Below, piece after piece: positions 116 to 9,550 of a stretch of DNA of 12,528 nucleotides (position 1 is its first letter; each line of letters opens with the position of its first letter). Both the position numbers and the translations under genes were made by a program. The stretch lies in IMG/VR virus record IMGVR_UViG_3300029068_000019; one strand, given 5' to 3'. Below the pieces are notes generated by a model. That model was not told where the DNA came from. It searched no databases and worked only from the letters and a program-made list of their open reading frames with translations. The stretch comes from a virus (Duplodnaviria; Heunggongvirae; Uroviricota; Caudoviricetes).

Positions 116-183
116 GAGACCCGGCGAGGGAGAAATCCCTCGCCACCTCTGATGTGGCAGGCATCCTCAACGCACTCGCACTT

Positions 184-210
184 AACCCGCTTCGGCGGGT
201 TTTTGTTTTT
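184..210 (+). terminator. Rho-independent terminator downstream of the hok remnant
   Basis: 7-bp GC-rich stem AACCCGC/GCGGGTT around a TTCG tetraloop, followed by TTTTGTTTTT. A second stable 8-bp hairpin lies at 123-144 (GGCGAGGG/CCCTCGCC), typical of structured hok mRNA 3' ends. Confidence 0.7.
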
Positions 211-1996: not shown

Positions 1997-2374
1997 ATGC
2001 GTGATATTCAGATGGTTCTTGAGCGTTGGGGGGCATGGGCGGCTAATAATCATGAAGATGTGACCTGGTCGTCCATTGCCGCCGGTTTTAAGGGATTAAT
2101 TCCTTCAAAAGTAAGATCTCGTCCGTAATGCTGTGACGATGACGCGATGATCATTTGTGAATGTATGGCTCGCCTGAAAAAAAACAACAGCGATTTACAT
2201 GATTTATTGGTGGACTATTATGTCGGCGGCATGACTTTTATGGCGCTTGCACGTAAGCATGGGCGATCTGATTGTTGGGTTGGCAGGATGCTCCAGAAAG
2301 CTGAGGGCGTAGTGGAGGGCATGCTGATGGTGTTGGATCTCCGATTGGAGATGGATGCTGATTGTTCGAAATAA
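1997..2374 (+). pseudogene. Late antiterminator Q (short QuuD-like family) interrupted by in-frame TAA at 2126-2128
   Basis: ATG 1997 with GGAG 7 nt upstream gives [43 protein letters not shown], then TAA, then in the same frame [18 protein letters not shown]...LEMDADCSK to the stop at 2372-2374. Joined length is 125 codons, the size of short prophage Q proteins, and sits immediately upstream of a promoter/terminator pair. A single C-to-T change in a CAA (Gln) codon would create this stop. Confidence 0.6.
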
Positions 2375-2386
2375 TTAAAGGAAAAG

Positions 2387-2415
2387 TTGCTGTCTGATTT
2401 TCATTAGTCTAACAT
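2387..2415 (+). promoter_or_regulatory. Candidate late promoter (pR'-like) directly after Q
   Basis: -35 TTGCTG (2387-2392), 17-bp spacer, -10 TAACAT (2410-2415). Position mirrors lambda pR'. Hexamers are imperfect. Confidence 0.3.
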
Positions 2416-2472
2416 TTTAAATGTTGGAATCGCAACGTAGTTATTATCATATAACAGCTTATTTCCTGATTT

Positions 2473-2501
2473 AGCCAGCCTCCCCAAAGGCTGGTTTTTT
2501 T
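2473..2501 (+). terminator. Rho-independent terminator (tR'-like) about 60-80 nt downstream of the candidate late promoter
   Basis: 7-bp stem CCAGCCT/AGGCTGG (2475-2481 with 2488-2494), CCCCAA loop, then a seven-T run at 2495-2501. Together with the promoter this resembles the lambda pR'-tR' short-transcript unit on which Q acts. Confidence 0.75.
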
Positions 2502-2529
2502 CTAATAAGTATCATTTCGGGTGGGGATT

Positions 2530-3054
2530 TTATTGTTTAACCCATAATAGTTCATTGACATTGAATCCCAACTTTTGAGCGGTACGCACATAGTCTGCTT
2601 TTACATTATCTGGAATAGTTTGGGTCCTTGCCAGAATCCATAGGTATTCTCTGTTCGGACCACTGACAAGAGCATACTTATACTCATCATCCAGTTTGAT
2701 TACATTATAGCCACCATAGAAGGGGCCAAAAAACGAAACTTTCAACGCTGCAGTTTTAGTATCTCCAGTAAAGTATGCTTTACCTTCGCTCTCGCTCCAT
2801 TTGTTTTTCGTTGGATCGTATCCACGGTTAAGTACGCGAATCCCTCCGTCGTTCCGTTTTTCATAAGTAGCGCTGACCTGTTCCAGACCACGTTCGAACC
2901 AGTTCTCGAGGCGAGCTATTTCATACCATTTTCCGAGGTAGCGGTTGGCGTCAAAATTTGTAATCGGCTGCACACCTTTAGGTGGTGTCGGGGCCTTACA
3001 TGCTATAAGAGTGAAAGAGAGTGCAATGCCAGTCAACACAGGCCATAACTTCAT
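2530..3054 (-). CDS. Blc-like bacterial lipocalin, predicted outer-membrane lipoprotein
   Basis: 174 aa. Signal peptide with lipobox LIAC (Cys19). Motifs NFDANRYLGKWYEIAR, KAYFTG, LKVSFFGPFYGGYNVI and YLWILART match E. coli Blc almost residue for residue in the conserved regions. AGGA Shine-Dalgarno 6 nt upstream on the - strand. Confidence 0.85.
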   Translation of the reverse strand: MKLWPVLTGIALSFTLIACKAPTPPKGVQPITNFDANRYLGKWYEIARLENWFERGLEQVSATYEKRNDGGIRVLNRGYDPTKNKWSESEGKAYFTGDTKTAALKVSFFGPFYGGYNVIKLDDEYKYALVSGPNREYLWILARTQTIPDNVKADYVRTAQKLGFNVNELLWVKQ

Positions 3055-3246
3055 AATAAATCCTGTACTTTTGATAGTTGAGAGTAAGTATGAAAGATAG
3101 ATGAGTACGACCGATCACTTAAAGAACTTTCCTACTATATTAGGAATAGTCAATAACAGAAAAATTGTCAGTGATGAAGCCAGAAAGGCAATTTAGTCCG
3201 TGCACTACAAAGTTTATGTGTTAATGAATTAGTCAAGGGGGAGGAA

Positions 3247-4206
3247 ATGATAAAAAAACCTGTGATTGGGATCAGCGGTTGTTTGGGCGGTTCTGCTGTT
3301 CGTTTTGATGGTGGTCACAAAAGAGATGACTTTTTAATGGACAAATTAGTGGAATGGGTAACATTCAGACCAGTATGTCCGGAAATGGCTATAGGGCTGC
3401 CAGTTCCGCGTCCTGCTCTACGACTTGTGCGCTCGAAGCAAGGAAATATACGGATGTGTTTCAGCCACGACCAGAATGAGGATGTGACAGAGAGAATGAC
3501 AGAGTTTAGTCGTTCTTATATGGACAAATTAAAGGATGTATCGGGGTTTGTGGTTTGTGCTAAATCTCCCAGCTGTGGCATGGAGCGCGTGCGTGTCTAT
3601 GATGAAAATGGTAATCGAGGTCGTAAAGATGGAGTGGGACTATTTACGAGCACTTTGATGGAAAAGTTTTCCTGGCTACCGGTTGAAGAGGATGGGCGAT
3701 TACATGATCCAGTGCTTCGTGAGAATTTTATTGAAAGAGTTTTTGCTTTGCATGAGCTCAATCACCTTTACAAGGAGAAATTATCAAGAAGAGAGTTATT
3801 AGCTTTTCATAGTCGTTATAAGCTTCAGTTGTTGGCGCATAGCCAGGCAGGCTATAAAGATATGGGACCATTTGTGGCTGCAATACACGAGTGGGCGGAC
3901 CTTGAATCATACTTTGAGGTGTATCGTGATAATCTGATGGCGATTCTCAGAAAACCAGCATCACGTAAAAATCACACGAATGTGCTGATGCATATACAAG
4001 GGTATTTTAGTAATTACTTAAGTACACGCCAGCGTAAAGAGTTGAGCGAGGTTATACTTAACTATCGCTTTGGCACATTGCCTCTTCTTGCGCCGTTGAC
4101 TCTGCTGAAGCATTATCTGGGTGAGTATCCTAATGATTACTTGCTTACACAGAACTACTTCGATCCCTATCCGGAAGAACTGGCTCTAAGACTGATGGTG
4201 AATTAA
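3247..4206 (+). CDS. DUF523 (TudS-like thiouracil desulfidase fold) fused to DUF1722 (YbgA-like)
   Basis: 319 aa with GGGGGAGG Shine-Dalgarno. N-terminus MIKKPVIGISGCLGGSAVRFDGGHK is the DUF523 signature. Cys12, Cys44 and Cys104 sit where the three [4Fe-4S] ligands of TudS-type enzymes are reported, from memory. The C-terminal ~160 aa is YbgA/DUF1722-like. Confidence 0.8.
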   Translation: MIKKPVIGISGCLGGSAVRFDGGHKRDDFLMDKLVEWVTFRPVCPEMAIGLPVPRPALRLVRSKQGNIRMCFSHDQNEDVTERMTEFSRSYMDKLKDVSGFVVCAKSPSCGMERVRVYDENGNRGRKDGVGLFTSTLMEKFSWLPVEEDGRLHDPVLRENFIERVFALHELNHLYKEKLSRRELLAFHSRYKLQLLAHSQAGYKDMGPFVAAIHEWADLESYFEVYRDNLMAILRKPASRKNHTNVLMHIQGYFSNYLSTRQRKELSEVILNYRFGTLPLLAPLTLLKHYLGEYPNDYLLTQNYFDPYPEELALRLMVN

Positions 4207-4612
4207 CTGTATGCGATATCATCTGAAAGTGATGAGTTCCTGTATGCAGGATATTTACAATCGTAAAAACTACGCTATGATGCTCATAGTGTCAGTTTTT
4301 ATAAAAATCCTGTTCACGCTAAAGAAGACATTGAGATGCAATTTAATGTTGGTAAACATACCAGCCCCAAAAGATTTTATTCAATCTGTTTTTATATGAA
4401 GATATTTCAAGTGAATATTAAGAGCATATAATATTATTATTGCACGCAGCTATTATAATATAACAGATTAGTTTAATGATTTGTTTTTTGTGAGTTAAAC
4501 ACATGGTTTTATAGTTGTGATGCAATGAGATTTTCCTTATTGTTGAACTGGCGAATATTGATTTTCCACCTATACTTACCTGGTGTAACCCCAATGATAT
4601 CAGGTGGATAAT

Positions 4613-5326
4613 ATGCCATACATATGTTCTATCATTTTGGTGTTGAACTCGTTTGGTGTCCGAATTGGTAAAGAAGATATTTTGTTTAAAAAAGGAAATG
4701 CTGTCCTCATTGAATACAATTTAAAAGATCTTTTTTCGTCAAATACAGATCATCTAATGATCGTAGATGTTGAGGAGAAAACAGTTAATGATTTCTTTAA
4801 AAACTACACACTCTCACCTTTTTCTGTAAGAAGGTTTTATCCGTCATACTTGATAGTAGAATGTGAAGATTTTTCATTGTTAAAGAACTTGGTTGCATGC
4901 TTGAATTGTGATAGCAAAACCGTGGATGTAGTTAGAAATCAAATATCACTTGCATGTCTTGCTGTCTTATCTTCAGAGAAAATAGTGCAAAGTTTTTTGT
5001 TCGGAAGTCTTAATAGCTTAGGTTGTAAAGTTAAGGCTATTATTCACTCGGATATCTCTGCGTCATGGAGACTTTGTGATATATCTTCAAGATTATATAT
5101 GAGCGAGAGTTTGTTAAAAAGAAAATTAAAAGACGAAGGATTATCGTTTAGTAAATTAATTCTTGAAGAACGAATGATGATGGCGCAAAGATTATTGATC
5201 TACAGTAACCATACTGTCGGCAAGGTGGCGGGAATATGCGGGTATGACAATGCATCATATTTTGTAAGTGTTTTTAGAGGATATTTTGGTGTGCCTCCGC
5301 ACCAATATTTATCAAGATTTTCTTAG
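4613..5326 (+). CDS. AraC/XylS-family transcriptional regulator (AppY/GadX/PatE-like)
   Basis: 237 aa from ATG 4613 (AGGTGG Shine-Dalgarno 5 nt upstream; the ORF track starts at GTG 4604). The C-terminal ~100 aa carries the two AraC helix-turn-helix units (...LLKRKLKDEGLSFSKLILEERMMMAQRLL...GYDNASYFVSVFRGYFGVPPHQY). Gene and its upstream region are strongly AT-rich. Confidence 0.8.
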   Translation: MPYICSIILVLNSFGVRIGKEDILFKKGNAVLIEYNLKDLFSSNTDHLMIVDVEEKTVNDFFKNYTLSPFSVRRFYPSYLIVECEDFSLLKNLVACLNCDSKTVDVVRNQISLACLAVLSSEKIVQSFLFGSLNSLGCKVKAIIHSDISASWRLCDISSRLYMSESLLKRKLKDEGLSFSKLILEERMMMAQRLLIYSNHTVGKVAGICGYDNASYFVSVFRGYFGVPPHQYLSRFS

Positions 5327-5394
5327 AAGATATGATGTGATGGCATTTTATAAAGTTATTTTTTGAAGTGTAAGATTATACGATATTTTTAGCT

Positions 5395-5426
5395 ACGCCA
5401 GAATAATTGCTGGCGTTTTTCTTTTT
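5395..5426 (+). terminator. Rho-independent terminator after the AraC-family gene
   Basis: 7-bp stem ACGCCAG/CTGGCGT, 8-nt loop, then TTTTTCTTTTT. Confidence 0.65.
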
Positions 5427-5516
5427 GAATAGATGTTCGGGCCTTACGCTAATGTAACTTCTTTCCTTCTTCGAACCAAACCGTGTACACCATCCGTTAT
5501 CTGCGGAGGTGAGGCT

Positions 5517-5732
5517 ATGAAATCCATGGATAAGTTAACAACGGGCATCGCCTACAGCACCTCTGCAGGCAGTGCTGGCTACTGGTTTTTACAGTTGCTC
5601 GATAAAGTCACGCCCTCACAGTGGGCGGCAATAGGTGTATTGGGTAGTCTGGTATTTGGCATGCTGACGTATCTGACAAATCTTTATTTCAAGATTAAAG
5701 AAGACAGGCGTAAGGCTGCGAGAGGAGAGTAA
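5517..5732 (+). CDS. Class II holin, phage 21 S-like pinholin with dual-start motif
   Basis: 71 aa beginning [24 protein letters not shown], i.e. Met1-Lys-Ser-Met4 dual start as in S21. Two transmembrane segments and a charged C-terminus ([13 protein letters not shown]). GGAGGTGAGG Shine-Dalgarno upstream. The track's extension back to 5433 has no ribosome-binding site and is discounted. Confidence 0.85.
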
Positions 5733-6048: not shown

Positions 6049-7072
<1,024 letters not shown>

Positions 7073-7323
7073 ATTAATATTAAATCGGATTATTTTTAGC
7101 GCTGAATGTGAAATTTAAATAAAAAGGACTCTTCCATGAGTCAAAATCCTTGAAATCTTAAGGGTAAGATAAAAGGTCATTAGACAGAATGACACGTTTT
7201 ATTAATAAATAAAGCTATTGTTTCATTCGTGTGTTTTTCTTTACAAAAGTAATCCTTGCTATGGTTGGTTAATCATGCGTTAATGGTGTTCTGGTTTGTT
7301 ACAAAATTATCTGAAGCAGTCAT

Positions 7324-7332
7324 TGTTATAAT
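7324..7332 (+). promoter_or_regulatory. Candidate extended -10 promoter (TGtTATAAT) for the cold-shock gene, implying a ~100-nt leader
   Basis: Perfect TATAAT at 7327-7332 with TG at 7324-7325, inside a long AT-rich untranslated region. No convincing -35. Confidence 0.3.
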
Positions 7333-7432
7333 TTTATTATTTGTACCTCTTGAGATTTCCTTGTTGGTTTTTCTCTCTGATATTTTTTTTCGGACCATTC
7401 TGCCCAAGGGCTAACTTCTTCAAAAGGTAATA

Positions 7433-7648
7433 ATGATGTCTAACAAAATGACTGGTTTAGTGAAATGGTTTAACCCTGAAAAAGGTTTTGGTTTCATCAC
7501 GCCGAAAGATGGTAGCAAAGATGTGTTTGTGCATTTCTCAGCTATTCAGAGCAACGATTTCAAAACGTTAACTGAGAATCAGGAAGTCGAATTTGGTATT
7601 GAGAACGGACCTAAAGGCCCTGCAGCTGTTCATGTAGTGGCACTTTGA
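7433..7648 (+). CDS. CspA-family cold-shock protein (CspB/CspI-like)
   Basis: [24 protein letters not shown]...VFVHFSAIQ carries the RNP1/RNP2 motifs. The true start may be the second ATG at 7436 (MSNKMTG...). AAGG Shine-Dalgarno upstream. Confidence 0.9.
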
Positions 7649-7852
7649 GGTAGAAAATATTACAAACCATATTCACTTTAGATGCCCGTGTTGCCATGGT
7701 TCTCAGTATAGAACATCATCTTTTGATGTTTCTGACAGAAATCCTTTCGGGGCAAAATGTATCTTTTGTAAATCAATGATGATTACATTTGATAATATTT
7801 CACAATACTTAAATGTTAGCCATCTGTCGTTAGATTTAAGAAAGTGAAAATG

Positions 7853-7878
7853 AAGGCTCCTTCGGGAGCTTTTTTGCT
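7853..7878 (+). terminator. Rho-independent terminator
   Basis: 8-bp stem AAGGCTCC/GGAGCTTT around a TTCG tetraloop, followed by a T run. Confidence 0.65.
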
Positions 7879-7919
7879 TAGTGTCTAGTCGATGGATACT
7901 CACATATTACGGTAACATT

Positions 7920-8150
7920 ATGAAAAAAATAATAGTTTTTTTTAACTCTGAACCAGCAATGGTAGTGCCAGTGATGACCGGAGTTAACACCATCATGCGT
8001 GAATATCCAAATGGCGAAACAACACACCTCACTGTAATGGCTGCAGGGTTTCCATCTCTGACCGGAGATCATAAAGTCATTTATGTAGCAGCGGATCGAC
8101 ATGTAACTTCAGAAGAAATTCTGGAAGCAGCAATGAGACTCTTGAATTGA
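7920..8150 (+). CDS. Small prophage protein, 77 aa (possibly YdfK/YnaE-like cold-shock-associated protein)
   Basis: ATG 7920 gives MKKIIVFFNSEPAMVVPV... The track's GTG 7881 start would overlap the terminator and is discounted. No clear Shine-Dalgarno. Family call rests only on length and context. Confidence 0.45.
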   Translation: MKKIIVFFNSEPAMVVPVMTGVNTIMREYPNGETTHLTVMAAGFPSLTGDHKVIYVAADRHVTSEEILEAAMRLLN

Positions 8151-8319
8151 TTTGATTCTAATGCATTGATAATAAATGATAATCATCTTTATCTGTTTGT
8201 GTGAAATTTAGACCGTCGTATGTTGATTATTGCGATGTTTCATCTTATCTTTTATACGTTTGCTCCATATAATTGACACTACTGTGTACCAGGACAGTCA
8301 TAACAGACTAAAAGAGGAA

Positions 8320-8496
8320 ATGATGAACATTGAAGAGTTAAAAACAAAAACAGAAGCAGATATTTCTGAATATATAACAAAAAAAATCATTGAGCTTAAG
8401 AAAAAGACCGGGAAAGAAGTTACCAGTATCCAGTTTACTGCACGGGAAAAAATGACTGGTCTTGAAAGCTATGATATCAAGATTGATTTAATCTAG
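8320..8496 (+). CDS. gnsB: GnsA/GnsB-family small protein
   Basis: MMNIEELKTKTEADISEYITKKIIELKKKTGKEVTSIQFTAREKMTGLESYDIKIDLI closely resembles GnsA/GnsB (FTAREKMTGLESYD motif). AAGAGGAA Shine-Dalgarno. The track's upstream extension from 8230 is discounted. Confidence 0.8.
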   Translation: MMNIEELKTKTEADISEYITKKIIELKKKTGKEVTSIQFTAREKMTGLESYDIKIDLI

Positions 8497-8558
8497 CATG
8501 TTTATAGTATTAGCATCAATTTCTCATCAGATGCTATTCAACAATACAAATTACTCAT

Positions 8559-8585
8559 AAACCTCGTTTTTACGGGGTTTTGTTA
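8559..8585 (+). terminator. Probable rho-independent terminator after gnsB
   Basis: Stem AAACCTCG/CGGGGTTT with one G-U pair, then TTTTGTT. Confidence 0.45.
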
Positions 8586-8791
8586 TATTTAAACATTACC
8601 GAATAGATATAAATCTCGATTGTCGATGGTATTGGTTGTGTGACAATACCTAGTCTTTCCGGTATGCCTGAAGAGAATACAAACGACAGATTATGTAAGG
8701 GAAACGCGCTGAAACTTTCACTCTTTCATGCTGAGTGATTTGACGTTATATTTTTAGCCGCAAGTGAAGAGCAAACGAATGGAGCGACAAA

Positions 8792-8998
8792 ATGCATAAA
8801 GATCAATACACTGATGCCCCCTCCCAGGAGCAGGTTCGTGTAAAAACTATGCTTAATAGCACCATTTCGATGGGTTACCCGGATGTTGTAATTGCATGTA
8901 TAGAACATCAAGTATCTCTGGAAGCATTCAGGGCAATTGAGGCCGCGTTAGTAAAGCACGATAAGAATACGAAGGATTATTCCCTGGTGGTTGACTGA
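8792..8998 (+). CDS. Hypothetical small prophage protein (68 aa)
   Basis: ATG with GGAG about 10 nt upstream. Co-oriented with the operon. No family recognised. Confidence 0.4.
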
Positions 8999-9033
8999 TC
9001 ACCATAACTGCTAACCATTCTGACCATTTCACA

Positions 9034-9064
9034 AGTGACAGAGTCAATATCGTATTCTGTCACT
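9034..9064. repeat. 9-bp perfect inverted repeat (AGTGACAGA ... TCTGTCACT) with 13-nt spacer
   Basis: Read directly from the sequence. No T run follows, so more likely a protein-binding site or RNA hairpin than a terminator. Confidence 0.4.
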
Positions 9065-9364
9065 GTAAGGCTAATACAGTACTGCAATTCAACTACAGCA
9101 ATGCCTCGTATTTAGGTGAATTTACAATATCGTCCAGTTCGGATGCCGGCTGCATTTCTGAAGATAAGGCATTTCGGTTCGCGTATTTTCCCCTCATGCT
9201 CGTCAGTCCTGCGCGTAGTAAGAAACAGGACACTCACACTAATTTGTGTGGGCATGCTGTGATGTCCTTCTGAATTATCCCCATGCCATTATGTAAAGCT
9301 CTGTTTCAGATGCTCGTCACGGTTGTCAGGCTGTCGGGTCCTCCCAGTGGGGGTCCCTGCCACG

Positions 9365-9376
9365 GGGCGGGAGCGT
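9365..9376 (+). other. Candidate cosN (cohesive-end site) of a lambda-like cos
   Basis: CACGGGGCGGGAGCGTCGCGG aligns with lambda ACGGGGCGGCGACCTCGCGG. The flanks are identical and 4 of the 12 core positions differ. It lies 175 bp upstream of the terminase small-subunit start, close to the lambda spacing, followed by an AT-rich cosB-like stretch. Confidence 0.5.
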
Positions 9377-9421
9377 CGCGGAAAAAGGCTAGTTTTTGAA
9401 ATTTTATTCGTCATCACCACT

Positions 9422-9445
9422 ACTGTAATTGATTGATATTACAGT
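9422..9445. repeat. 8-bp perfect inverted repeat ACTGTAAT-(8 nt)-ATTACAGT in the putative cosB region
   Basis: Read directly from the sequence. Sits between the candidate cosN and the terminase small-subunit gene, where terminase and IHF sites lie in lambda. Confidence 0.4.
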
Positions 9446-9550
9446 TGTTTTATTTTTATGGTGTCGATTCTGATTGTTTTTTGTTCATCACTAACACCGT
9501 TTGCCTAAAGTTGTTCGCAAGATGCATGTTTAAAACATTCTGGAGCGGGT

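What the first reader, a model, noticed from the sequence alone, without database searches (positions are those of the whole stretch)
2375..5430. AT-rich three-gene cargo island in the Q-to-lysis slot where Stx phages carry stx
Between the Q gene with its pR'/tR'-like unit and the holin lies a block of lower GC than the flanking phage genes. It holds a - strand Blc-like lipocalin lipoprotein, a DUF523(TudS-like)-DUF1722 fusion and an AraC-family regulator, closed by its own terminator. None of these is a phage morphogenesis or lysis function. In lambdoid phages this is the classic insertion point for lysogenic-conversion and anti-phage cargo. I do not recognise this gene combination as a described module, so it is the best candidate here for an uncharacterised accessory system.
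Basis: partly seen in the sequence, partly recalled or inferred. Interest (0 to 1): 0.7.

Follow-up and report, generated by a model that had tools for sequence, protein, structure and literature searches.

The report
Known-type phage cargo genes before lysis
Between the late-gene switch and the lysis genes of a decayed E. coli prophage sit three separate passenger genes: an outer-membrane lipid-binding protein, an enzyme that strips a sulfur mark from transfer RNA, and an acid-stress-type regulator. All three belong to families already described in phages, so this is a tidy but fairly ordinary case.

Summary
Window 2375-5430 (GC 0.38 against 0.47-0.54 in the flanks) holds a minus-strand Blc lipocalin lipoprotein, a DUF523-DUF1722 fusion and an AraC-family regulator, between Q/pR'/tR' and an S21-type holin. 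It is a cargo block, but not an uncharacterised system. The fusion protein is RudS, a tRNA 4-thiouridine desulfidase. It is 92% identical to phage 1H12 gp66, the 'RudS_vir' assayed by Jamontas et al. 2024. blc was already listed as a common moron (passenger gene) of infant-gut lambda phages (Mathieu et al. 2020). The regulator belongs to the GadW/YdeO/AppY clade and is 48% identical to the probable PatE of O157. Each plus-strand gene has its own terminator, and GC differs between blc-rudS (0.43-0.44) and araC (0.34), so the block is composite. The blc-rudS pair derives from a chromosomal blc|MerR-like|transthyretin-like|rudS cluster of Enterobacter, Citrobacter and relatives. The trio is tightly linked to one Q allele. 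It occurs in 1154 of 5426 complete E. coli genomes and is under purifying selection. Here it sits in a defective Qin-type prophage whose Q carries a nonsense codon. No defence-system signature was found. Interest is modest.

The parts
1997..2374 (+). Antiterminator Q (82/DLP12 type, 125 codons). It is a pseudogene in this window because of TAA at 2126-2128 (codon 44).
   Evidence: Pfam Phage_antitermQ on the C-terminal 75 aa. The full-frame translation shows a stop where strain TA8571, IdasGreatGrand and 1H12 have Gln. It is 85% identical to QuuD of DLP12. Q is intact in 76 of 77 viral loci.
2387..2415 (+). Candidate late promoter pR' (-35 TTGCTG 2387-2392, 17-nt spacer, -10 TAACAT 2410-2415)
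   Evidence: Read directly from the sequence. The region is conserved in 1H12 and IdasGreatGrand. This is a consensus-level assignment only.
2473..2503 (+). tR' intrinsic terminator of the short pR' leader transcript
   Evidence: 9-bp stem followed by a U run. dG -14.9 kcal/mol, z -3.47, 0 of 200 shuffles fold as well.
2530..3054 (-). blc2: Blc-type bacterial lipocalin, outer-membrane lipoprotein (lipobox LIAC, Cys19)
   Evidence: Pfam Lipocalin_2 and NCBIfam Blc above cutoff. It is 59% identical to K-12 Blc and 78-80% to the rudS-linked Blc of C. sedlakii and E. cloacae. PDB 3MBT/1QWD match at E 1e-65 to 1e-67. Intact in 78 of 79 viral loci.
3055..3246 (.). Divergent blc / rudS control region. 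It retains blocks homologous to the chromosomal blc|mlrA-like intergenic region (TACTATATTAGGA 3133-3145; AGTAAGTATG 3083-3092).
   Evidence: Alignments with 34 chromosomal intergenic regions. No strong sigma-70 consensus match was found here.
3247..4206 (+). rudS: TudS(DUF523)-DUF1722 fusion, a tRNA 4-thiouridine desulfidase
   Evidence: Pfam domains. Cys12, Cys44 and Cys110 are present. It is 293/319 identical to phage 1H12 gp66, which is RudS_vir (PMC11417400 Table 1). TudS structure 6Z92 is matched. Intact in 79 of 80 viral loci.
4263..4302 (.). Terminator after rudS: hairpin flanked by an A run and a U run, so possibly bidirectional
   Evidence: dG -17.6 kcal/mol, z -5.82, 0 of 200 shuffles fold as well. 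Conserved in four divergent alleles.
4303..4612 (+). AT-rich (about 31% GC) upstream region of araC. It has a conserved TTTCCACCTATACTTAC block (4563-4579) and an SD AGGTGGA.
   Evidence: Composition and alignment A3. IS elements are inserted here or in araC in relatives.
4613..5326 (+). AraC-family regulator of the GadW/YdeO/AppY/PatE/Psr clade (ATG 4613; alternative GTG 4604)
   Evidence: Pfam HTH_18 and HTH_AraC. Best NCBIfam match is YdeO, full length but below cutoff. Identities: 48% to the O157 313-kb protein (probable PatE), 37% to the EDL933 1.905-Mb protein (probable PsrB), 33% GadW, 30% AppY, 29% YdeO. PDB matches are the GadX DNA-binding domain, CsvR, Rns and ToxT.
5395..5421 (+). 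Terminator closing the araC unit
   Evidence: 7-bp GC-rich stem followed by a U run. dG -11.3 kcal/mol, z -2.5.
5517..5732 (+). S21-type (pin)holin with dual-start motif MKSM. It is the first lysis gene and the downstream boundary of the slot.
   Evidence: Pfam Phage_holin_2_1, E 6e-34. Annotated essD in relatives.

Best explanation
The block is a composite set of morons (phage passenger genes) lodged in the leader of the late operon of a lambdoid, Qin-type prophage. It is not one system.

**Unit 1, blc(-) and rudS(+).** This is a divergent pair captured together from a chromosomal stress cluster of Enterobacteriaceae, blc | MerR/MlrA-like regulator | transthyretin-like | rudS. The two middle genes have been lost.
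- RudS is a [4Fe-4S] desulfidase that converts 4-thiouridine at position 8 of host tRNAs back to uridine. In the published assays this lowers tRNA s4U content and shortens the near-UV (UVA) growth delay.
- Blc is an outer-membrane lipoprotein of the lipocalin fold. It is expected to bind lysophospholipids or fatty acids and to act in envelope maintenance.

**Unit 2, araC.** This is a lower-GC, separately terminated AraC-type regulator of the GadW/YdeO/AppY/PatE/Psr clade. It most likely plugs into host promoters, probably those of the GAD acid-resistance regulon, as its prophage relatives do.

**Expression.** In a lysogen each gene would be expressed from its own promoter. In a Q-proficient phage, antiterminated transcription from pR' must read through the whole block to reach the holin. 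That would co-express rudS and araC with the late genes and run antisense to blc. In this window Q is inactivated and the prophage is defective, so only the lysogenic-conversion role can remain.

**Shown here:** gene identities, linkage, terminators, origin and purifying selection.
**Shown elsewhere:** RudS activity, on a 92%-identical orthologue.
**Inferred:** the Blc ligand, the targets of the regulator, the promoters, and Q-dependent read-through.
For: - Domains and family scores.
- RudS: 293/319 identical to 1H12 gp66, with Cys12/44/110 present. That protein is 'RudS_vir' in PMC11417400. There, all tested RudS variants lowered tRNA s4U in E. coli, and RudS overexpression diminished UVA growth delay.
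- Separate units: terminators at 2473-2496, 4263-4302 and 5395-5416. GC is 0.44/0.43 for blc/rudS and 0.335 for araC. dS against 1H12 is 0.18-0.31 for blc/rudS and 0.57 for araC.
- Uneven decay: araC is broken in about 12 of 75 viral loci, while blc and rudS are intact in 78/79 and 79/80.
- Chromosomal origin: blc(-) mlrA-like(+) TTR-like(+) rudS(+) in 36 of the 62 loci from other genera, each a different GTDB species representative. blc|rudS are directly adjacent in C. sedlakii and Citrobacter sp. JGM124. The window's Blc is closer to these (78-80%) than to E. coli's own Blc (59%). Intergenic homology is retained.
- Light-stress context: in C. amalonaticus and C. braakii, rudS ends a DUF1365 / CFA-synthase-like / DUF2878 / DUF3833 cluster.
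- Linkage and spread.
- Purifying selection: dN/dS 0.10-0.23.
- AraC relatives. The review PMC10877973 and PMC10057817 report that PatE, PsrB and AppY regulate GAD acid-resistance genes.
- blc as a lambda moron: PMC6969025.
- Defective Qin-type context at rspB/ydfJ.
Against: - No expression or phenotype data exist for this allele.
- No convincing sigma-70 promoters were found for blc or rudS by the consensus scan.
- RudS_vir was the less active variant relative to its protein level in the published assay.
- The regulator is only 48% identical to its closest characterised relative, and that identification of PatE rests on genome position, not on a named record. Its regulon may therefore differ.
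- The near-perfect linkage of all three genes would also fit a functional unit.
- The ancestral cluster had its own regulator, which is missing here. This leaves room for araC having taken over that role.
Confidence: 0.72

Rival explanations
1. One co-regulated system. The AraC-type protein has replaced the lost MerR/MlrA-like regulator and controls blc and rudS, perhaps in response to a lipid ligand, since its Rns/ToxT relatives are fatty-acid-sensing and Blc binds lipids.
For: - Reciprocal linkage is strict: 72 of 72 AraC-anchored loci and 70 of 74 RudS-anchored loci carry all three genes.
- The ancestral regulator is absent from the phage copy.
- The closest solved relatives include Rns and ToxT.
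- A 30-nt element of the pR' leader is repeated upstream of araC.
Against: - Strong terminators lie between the units.
- Composition and divergence differ between the units.
- araC is pseudogenised or IS-disrupted in about 16% of loci while blc and rudS stay intact.
- Homologous AraC genes occur alone in other prophage positions.
- Characterised relatives act on host GAD genes.
- Linkage is explained by the position between Q/pR' and S, which must stay together.
Confidence: 0.13
2. RudS is mainly a lytic-cycle auxiliary gene. After UV-triggered induction, Q-antiterminated late transcription overproduces RudS. RudS erases s4U8, so UVA cross-linking of tRNA and the stringent response cannot throttle late protein synthesis.
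For: - rudS lies on the late-transcript strand, downstream of pR'/tR' and upstream of the holin.
- RudS overexpression reduces UVA growth delay (PMC11417400).
- The chromosomal relatives sit in stress-type clusters.
- The module is present in plaque-forming phages.
Against: - The gene is kept intact in defective prophages that cannot run a late programme, including this one with a dead Q.
- It has its own terminator, and presumably its own promoter, like a lysogen-expressed moron.
- No experiment links it to burst size.
Confidence: 0.2
3. Anti-phage defence or superinfection-exclusion island, as the first reader suggested for this slot.
For: - The slot is a known place for accessory cargo.
- An outer-membrane lipoprotein could in principle mask a receptor, as Cor or Llp do.
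- tRNA state matters for some defence and counter-defence systems (general knowledge).
Against: - No PADLOC model matches any of the four ORFs, even at E 0.1.
- Each protein belongs to a family with a known non-defence activity.
- The blc-rudS pair comes from a housekeeping-type chromosomal cluster.
Confidence: 0.06
4. Functionless hitch-hiking DNA, kept only because it lies between Q/pR' and the lysis genes.
For: - araC decays fairly often and IS elements accumulate in the block.
- The host prophage is degenerate.
Against: - dN/dS is 0.10-0.23 for all three genes across alleles that are up to 24% divergent in protein.
- blc and rudS are intact in about 99% of loci, even in defective prophages.
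Confidence: 0.05

Closest known systems
RudS_vir (gp66 of Escherichia phage 1H12) and the RudS family (Jamontas et al., NAR 2024, PMC11417400)
   Same: Same gene in the same Q-blc-rudS-araC-holin arrangement. 319 aa, 92% identical, with a TudS domain, a DUF1722 domain and Cys12/44/110.
   Different: 26 substitutions. This copy sits in a defective Qin-type prophage with an inactive Q. The paper states that E. coli lacks RudS, whereas the block is found in 21% of complete E. coli genomes.
blc moron of infant-gut lambda phages (Mathieu et al., Nat Commun 2020, PMC6969025), and E. coli chromosomal Blc
   Same: Lipocalin_2 fold with a lipobox. It passes the NCBIfam Blc cutoff. The paper counted blc as a moron in more than 50% of its lambdas.
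   Different: Only 59% identical to E. coli's own Blc. It is 78-80% identical to a second Blc paralogue that is linked to rudS in Enterobacter and Citrobacter.
Prophage AraC-like regulators PatE, PsrA/PsrB (EHEC O157:H7) and AppY (DLP12)
   Same: Full-length homology including the N-terminal domain and the MxxxCS(V/I)I start. Prophage-borne and AT-rich. The Psr-type copy in EDL933 and the copy in a Stx2k phage occupy the same Q-to-holin slot.
   Different: 48% identical to probable PatE, 37% to probable PsrB and 30% to AppY. It falls below the NCBIfam equivalog cutoffs for YdeO and GadX. Its targets are untested. The PatE and PsrB identities were inferred from genome position.
Chromosomal blc | mlrA-like MerR | transthyretin-like | rudS cluster (Enterobacter, Leclercia, Lelliottia and others); Salmonella orf242-orf319 (STM1390-STM1389)
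   Same: The same divergent blc/rudS pair, with 70-80% protein identity and residual intergenic homology.
   Different: The phage copy lacks the MerR-type regulator and the transthyretin-like gene, like the reduced form in C. sedlakii. It is flanked by phage genes.
Other cargo of the Q-to-S slot: stx in Stx phages, nmpC in DLP12, cspB/cspF in K-12 Qin
   Same: Same position downstream of pR'/tR' and upstream of the holin. As with nmpC, a minus-strand outer-membrane protein gene lies right after tR'.
   Different: Different genes, and no toxin. The K-12 Qin cargo is recalled from knowledge, not checked here.

Membership tests
RudS (tRNA 4-thiouridine desulfidase) | N-terminal TudS/DUF523 desulfidase domain | tested here: met
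   PF04463, E 5.8e-40, residues 7-149. Matches TudS 6Z92.
RudS (tRNA 4-thiouridine desulfidase) | C-terminal DUF1722 domain fused in the same polypeptide | tested here: met
   PF08349, E 9.4e-40, residues 192-309. 49% identical to E. coli YbgA over 152 aa.
RudS (tRNA 4-thiouridine desulfidase) | Three conserved Cys ligands of the [4Fe-4S] cluster (Cys12/44/110 in RudS_vir) | tested here: met
   Cys is present at positions 12, 44 and 110. The positions come from Table 1 of PMC11417400.
RudS (tRNA 4-thiouridine desulfidase) | Removes s4U from tRNA in vivo | not testable with these tools
   Shown for the 92%-identical RudS_vir in PMC11417400. Not shown for this allele.
Blc-type bacterial lipocalin | Lipocalin_2 domain, scoring above the curated Blc subfamily cutoff | tested here: met
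   PF08212, E 7.5e-43. NF007786 scores 312.6 bits against a cutoff of 267. PDB Blc match at E 8e-67.
Blc-type bacterial lipocalin | Lipoprotein signal peptide with lipobox Cys and no inner-membrane retention Asp at +2 | tested here: met
   MKLWPVLTGIALSFTLIAC|KAP: the lipobox is LIAC with Cys19, and the +2 residue is Lys (sequence).
Blc-type bacterial lipocalin | Binds lysophospholipid or fatty acid; located in the outer membrane | not testable with these tools
   Inferred from the E. coli Blc literature (own knowledge).
GadW/YdeO/AppY/PatE/Psr clade of AraC regulators | C-terminal double helix-turn-helix AraC DNA-binding domain | tested here: met
   PF12833, E 3e-16, and PF00165, E 6e-11. GadX DNA-binding domain 3MKL, E 4e-21.
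GadW/YdeO/AppY/PatE/Psr clade of AraC regulators | Full-length similarity including the N-terminal domain | tested here: met
   End-to-end BLASTP alignments: 48% (probable PatE), 37% (probable PsrB), 33% GadW, 30% AppY, 29% YdeO.
GadW/YdeO/AppY/PatE/Psr clade of AraC regulators | Orthologue of YdeO or GadX (NCBIfam equivalog cutoff) | tested here: not met
   YdeO 112 bits against a cutoff of 348. GadX 90 bits against a cutoff of 500. It is a clade member, not an orthologue.
GadW/YdeO/AppY/PatE/Psr clade of AraC regulators | Activates gadE/hdeA and acid resistance | not testable with these tools
   Reported for PatE, PsrB and AppY. Unknown for this protein.
Moron (Hendrix/Juhala sense) | Inserted between genes that are adjacent or differently filled in related phages | tested here: met
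   The Q-to-holin slot holds nmpC in DLP12 and AraC+tRNAs+stx2 in a Stx2k phage. Upstream and downstream phage genes vary around a constant module.
Moron (Hendrix/Juhala sense) | Own terminator | tested here: met
   Hairpins at 4263-4302 and 5395-5416 with significant z-scores.
Moron (Hendrix/Juhala sense) | Own promoter | tested here: inconclusive
   Only weak consensus matches were found, and none in 3055-3246. Conserved -10-like blocks were seen in alignments.
Moron (Hendrix/Juhala sense) | Base composition different from neighbouring phage genes | tested here: met
   0.380 against 0.47-0.54.
Known anti-phage defence systems | Match to a PADLOC defence protein model | tested here: not met
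   0 families for all four ORFs at E <= 0.1.

The most novel reading that the evidence does not exclude
The blc-rudS pair is a portable near-UV / photo-oxidative stress cassette that lambdoid phages lifted from enterobacterial chromosomes. Because it lies in the late-operon leader, UV-triggered induction would flood the cell with an RNA-modification eraser. [quoted passage not shown] In lysogens, including domesticated defective prophages in about a fifth of E. coli genomes, the same genes plus the acid-stress regulator would harden the host against light, envelope and acid stress.
Probability: 0.2. Interest if true: 0.6.

Novelty: new member of a known kind. Interest (0 to 1): 0.3.

Why it matters
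- It corrects a published generalisation that E. coli lacks RudS. About one in five complete E. coli genomes carries a prophage-borne tRNA s4U eraser under purifying selection.
- It gives that gene an evolutionary origin: a chromosomal blc / MerR-like / transthyretin-like / rudS cluster.
- It adds a divergent, untested member to the prophage regulators (PatE, Psr, AppY) that rewire acid resistance.
- None of this opens a new class of system. The value is in annotation and in a few cheap, clear experiments.

Tried and rejected
- **Defence system:** PADLOC gave no hits for any of the four ORFs.
- **RNA genes in the block:** no tRNAs. No Rfam family matched within 2375-5430, even at E 0.1.
- **Small ORF 4211-4399 (62 aa):** rejected as a gene. 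It has no family match, it runs across the rudS terminator hairpin, and relatives have large indels there.
- **Photolyase linkage:** no phr homologue lies within +/-6 kb of rudS in any of 64 genomic loci.
- **Natural variant without araC (L075):** it turned out to be an IS1-associated replacement, not a clean moron boundary.
- **30-nt repeat 2435-2464 / 4444-4473 as a shared operator:** it is missing from the 1H12 allele and from the EDL933 and Stx2k AraC loci. It is left unexplained.
- **Primary papers on PatE, PsrA and PsrB (PMC3416394, PMC7099609, PMC4288888):** not held. The cluster look-up returned no 'PatE' name. Those identities therefore rest on genome position plus the review PMC10877973.
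- **Structure prediction and the large protein searches:** not run, because the family assignments were already unambiguous.

Full report
**1. What is in the sequence**

The window is a lambdoid prophage of Escherichia coli of the Qin type. It matches about 144 complete genomes over at least 80% of its length, at up to 99.8% identity among the best listed. In the strains examined, H2 and TA8571, it lies at the rspB/ydfJ locus, where the prophage is truncated: the portal gene is cut and the tail genes are missing.

The gene order is:
- rem, then ydfU/DUF968 (930-1979)
- Q (1997-2374)
- the block in question
- S21-type holin (5517-5732), ydfR, rrrQ, rzpQ
- a second AT-rich cargo region with cspI
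- the terminase genes

- Blc-type lipocalin lipoprotein, 2530-3054 on the minus strand. It matches Lipocalin_2 at E 7.5e-43, scores 312.6 bits on the NCBIfam Blc subfamily model (cutoff 267), and has the lipobox LIAC.
- A 319-aa DUF523/TudS plus DUF1722 fusion, 3247-4206.
- An AraC-family protein, 4613-5326.

GC is 0.380 for 2375-5430, against 0.539 for ydfU, 0.471 for Q and 0.474 for the lysis genes. The terminator that closes the block (5395-5416) and tR' (2473-2496) both fold significantly better than shuffled sequence.

**2. Corrections to the picture**

First, the Q gene of this window is dead. Codon 44 is TAA (2126-2128), where strain TA8571 and the phages IdasGreatGrand and 1H12 have CAA. 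Q is intact in 76 of 77 related viral contigs.

Second, the block is not uniform. blc and rudS have GC 0.44 and 0.43. The regulator and its 400-nt upstream region have 0.335 and 0.31.

Third, a strong hairpin terminator lies 57 nt after the rudS stop codon (4263-4302; dG -17.6 kcal/mol, z -5.8). It separates rudS from araC and is conserved across divergent alleles.

The block is therefore three transcription units: blc on the minus strand, diverging from rudS, and then araC.

**3. Do the genes travel together?**

Yes.
- The block is found in 1154 of 5426 complete E. coli genomes, and in 883 of them over at least 80% of its length.
- It is found in isolated phages. IdasGreatGrand matches at 94% identity over 98% of the block. 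Phage 1H12 (two records) and nine Lambda_ev-type lambdas from infant stools carry a more divergent third gene.
- In IMG/VR viral contigs, 70 of 74 RudS-anchored loci with enough flank show Q-blc-rudS-araC-holin in that order.
- In the reverse test, all 72 AraC-anchored loci with enough upstream sequence have blc and rudS.

The module stays with one Q allele (97-99% identical), while the genes further out change. Upstream is either ydfU or rusA-ylcG. Downstream is either an rrrQ-type or an rrrD-type lysozyme. This is the expected mosaic behaviour of DNA caught between Q/pR' and the lysis cassette.

**4. The middle gene is a characterised enzyme**

Phage 1H12 gp66 is the 'RudS_vir' of Jamontas et al. 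(NAR 2024, PMC11417400). That study showed that TudS-DUF1722 fusions remove the 4-thiouridine modification from tRNA. It also showed that their overexpression in E. coli lowers tRNA s4U and reduces the UVA-induced growth delay. All tested variants, the viral one included, were active on tRNA.

The window protein is 293/319 identical to gp66 and has the three cluster-ligand cysteines at positions 12, 44 and 110.

The same paper states that E. coli lacks RudS. The present search shows that this holds for laboratory strains only.

**5. blc was already listed as a moron, and the pair has a chromosomal origin**

Mathieu et al. (Nat Commun 2020, PMC6969025) reported blc as a moron present in more than half of their infant-gut lambda phages.

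The phage Blc is only 59% identical to E. coli's own Blc. It is 78-80% identical to a second Blc that sits next to rudS in other Enterobacteriaceae.

Sixty-four genomic loci were retrieved, each from a different GTDB species representative. Two of these are E. coli phage fragments binned into a MAG, which leaves 62 from other genera. Among these 62:
- 36 have blc(-) | MerR/MlrA-like regulator(+) | transthyretin-like(+) | rudS(+).
- Several have reduced forms.
- Citrobacter sedlakii and Citrobacter sp. JGM124 have blc and rudS directly adjacent and divergent, as in the phage.

The phage intergenic region still aligns with conserved blocks of the chromosomal blc|regulator intergenic region.

In C. 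amalonaticus and C. braakii, rudS instead closes a DUF1365 / CFA-synthase-like / DUF2878 / DUF3833 cluster. By general knowledge this is the light- and singlet-oxygen-induced furan-fatty-acid cluster, and PMC9758184 lists UfaM among light-inducible genes. The RudS paper likewise places RudS genes in light-responsive operons.

The simplest reading is that the phage captured blc and rudS together from such a stress cluster and lost the regulator.

**6. The regulator**

Its best NCBIfam match is YdeO. The match is full-length but far below the equivalog cutoff.

End-to-end BLASTP identities:
- 48% to the AraC protein at 313 kb in an EHEC-sized E. coli genome (strain 8_140198). O157:H7 genomes give the same match, and I equate it with PatE/z0321 from its position.
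- 37% to the EDL933 protein at 1.905 Mb. It has two copies per genome, and I equate it with PsrB/z2104 from its position.
- 33% to GadW, 30% to AppY and 29% to YdeO.

PatE, PsrB and AppY are prophage-borne activators of GAD acid-resistance genes.

The Psr-type copy in EDL933 and a 38% homologue in a Stx2k phage lie in the same antiterminator-to-holin slot. In the Stx2k phage it sits just upstream of the tRNAs and stx2. The probable PatE-type copies, by contrast, lie near tail-fibre genes.

The closest solved structures are the GadX DNA-binding domain, CsvR, Rns and ToxT.

**7. Is it one system?**

Evidence against a single system:
- The units have separate terminators.
- They differ in composition.
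- araC has diverged faster: dS against 1H12 is 0.57, against 0.18-0.31 for blc and rudS.
- araC is truncated, frameshifted or IS-disrupted in about 16% of loci, while blc and rudS stay intact in about 99%.
- Homologous regulators occur alone elsewhere.

All three genes are nevertheless under purifying selection, with dN/dS of 0.10-0.23. No PADLOC defence model matches any of them.

I therefore read the block as two adjacent morons, blc-rudS and araC. Their linkage follows from their position rather than from shared function. I give the 'AraC replaced the lost MerR regulator' alternative about 0.13.

**8. How it most likely works**

In a lysogen:
- RudS lowers the s4U8 content of host tRNA and so blunts the near-UV growth delay. 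The activity is shown for the orthologue; the benefit is inferred.
- Blc acts at the outer membrane in lipid handling (inferred).
- The regulator acts on host promoters, probably those of the acid-resistance regulon (inferred by homology).

In a Q-proficient phage, the late transcript from pR' must pass through the block. rudS and araC would then be co-expressed with the lysis genes, and blc would be opposed by antisense transcription. This is inferred from the layout. In this window that route is closed by the Q nonsense codon. The intact cargo in a dead prophage argues for benefit to the host.

**9. Verdict**

The feature is real and the cargo interpretation is right. The claim that it is an undescribed system is not supported. 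It is a new member of a known kind.

The useful by-products are:
- the prevalence figure for phage-borne RudS in E. coli;
- the chromosomal origin of the blc-rudS pair;
- a divergent PatE-like regulator worth testing.

Interest: 0.3.

Noticed in passing
window 2126-2128 (within Q, 1997-2374): In-frame TAA at codon 44 of the antiterminator Q gene, where relatives have CAA (Gln). Q is intact in 76 of 77 related viral contigs, so this prophage copy cannot antiterminate late transcription.
   Followed up: yes
window 2435-2464 and 4444-4473: A 30-nt direct repeat (25/30 identical, with a TATTAT(C/A)ATA palindromic core). One copy is in the pR' leader transcript and the other is about 150 nt upstream of araC. 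The second copy is kept in the window and IdasGreatGrand alleles but is absent from the 1H12 allele. It may be a relic of an earlier position of araC right after a pR' leader, or a binding site.
   Followed up: partly
window 7278-7694: Rfam cspA thermoregulator (110 bits, gathering score 78) covering the 5' UTR and start of cspI. It opens a second AT-rich cargo region (7073-9550, GC 0.375) between Rz and the terminase genes, with cspI, a ymcF/ynfQ-like ORF, ynfN and gnsB-like ORFs.
   Followed up: no
loci L080, L081, L087, L075, L142; also hits H1, H9, H19, H24 and H25: IS elements (IS1, IS3 family, ISVsa5) are repeatedly inserted in araC, in the AT-rich spacer upstream of it, or at the holin start. 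In L075 an IS1 replaces the whole araC unit. This is either a hot spot or selection against the regulator.
   Followed up: partly
L021-L073 (for example L031 4021-6960): Conserved chromosomal cluster blc(-) | MerR/MlrA-like | transthyretin-like | rudS in Enterobacter, Leclercia, Lelliottia and relatives. Its intergenic blocks are almost invariant: TAAGTGTAGTGCA (on the blc strand, CTACACTTAA, which resembles a sigma-S -10 element) and TTCGTAGTATATTGAGA. The regulon and its signal are not known to me.
   Followed up: partly
L062 and L067 (MAG 'Candidatus Nanosynbacter sp.' D148_maxbin.008): Two short contigs of a Saccharibacteria MAG carry this E. coli phage module at 92-97% protein identity (Q, blc, rudS, araC, holin). 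This is almost certainly a binning contaminant.
   Followed up: no
window 124-205: Weak match to the isrK Hfq-binding sRNA (25 bits, gathering score 50, E 0.047), upstream of rem. IsrK is, from memory, a Salmonella Gifsy-prophage sRNA. The score is below threshold, so it may be chance.
   Followed up: no
L010 and L011 (Citrobacter braakii ATCC 51113): Two rudS copies in one genome, each 75% identical to the window protein. One lies at the end of a DUF1365 / CFA-synthase-like / DUF2878 / DUF3833 cluster. The other stands alone between GGDEF/EAL genes.
   Followed up: partly
window 6726-7022 (inside Rz, 6575-7072): An ORF embedded in the +1 frame of rzpQ with a lipobox (LTSC). This is the usual Rz1/RzoQ o-spanin arrangement. 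RefSeq does not annotate it in the two related strains examined, TA8571 and H2.
   Followed up: no
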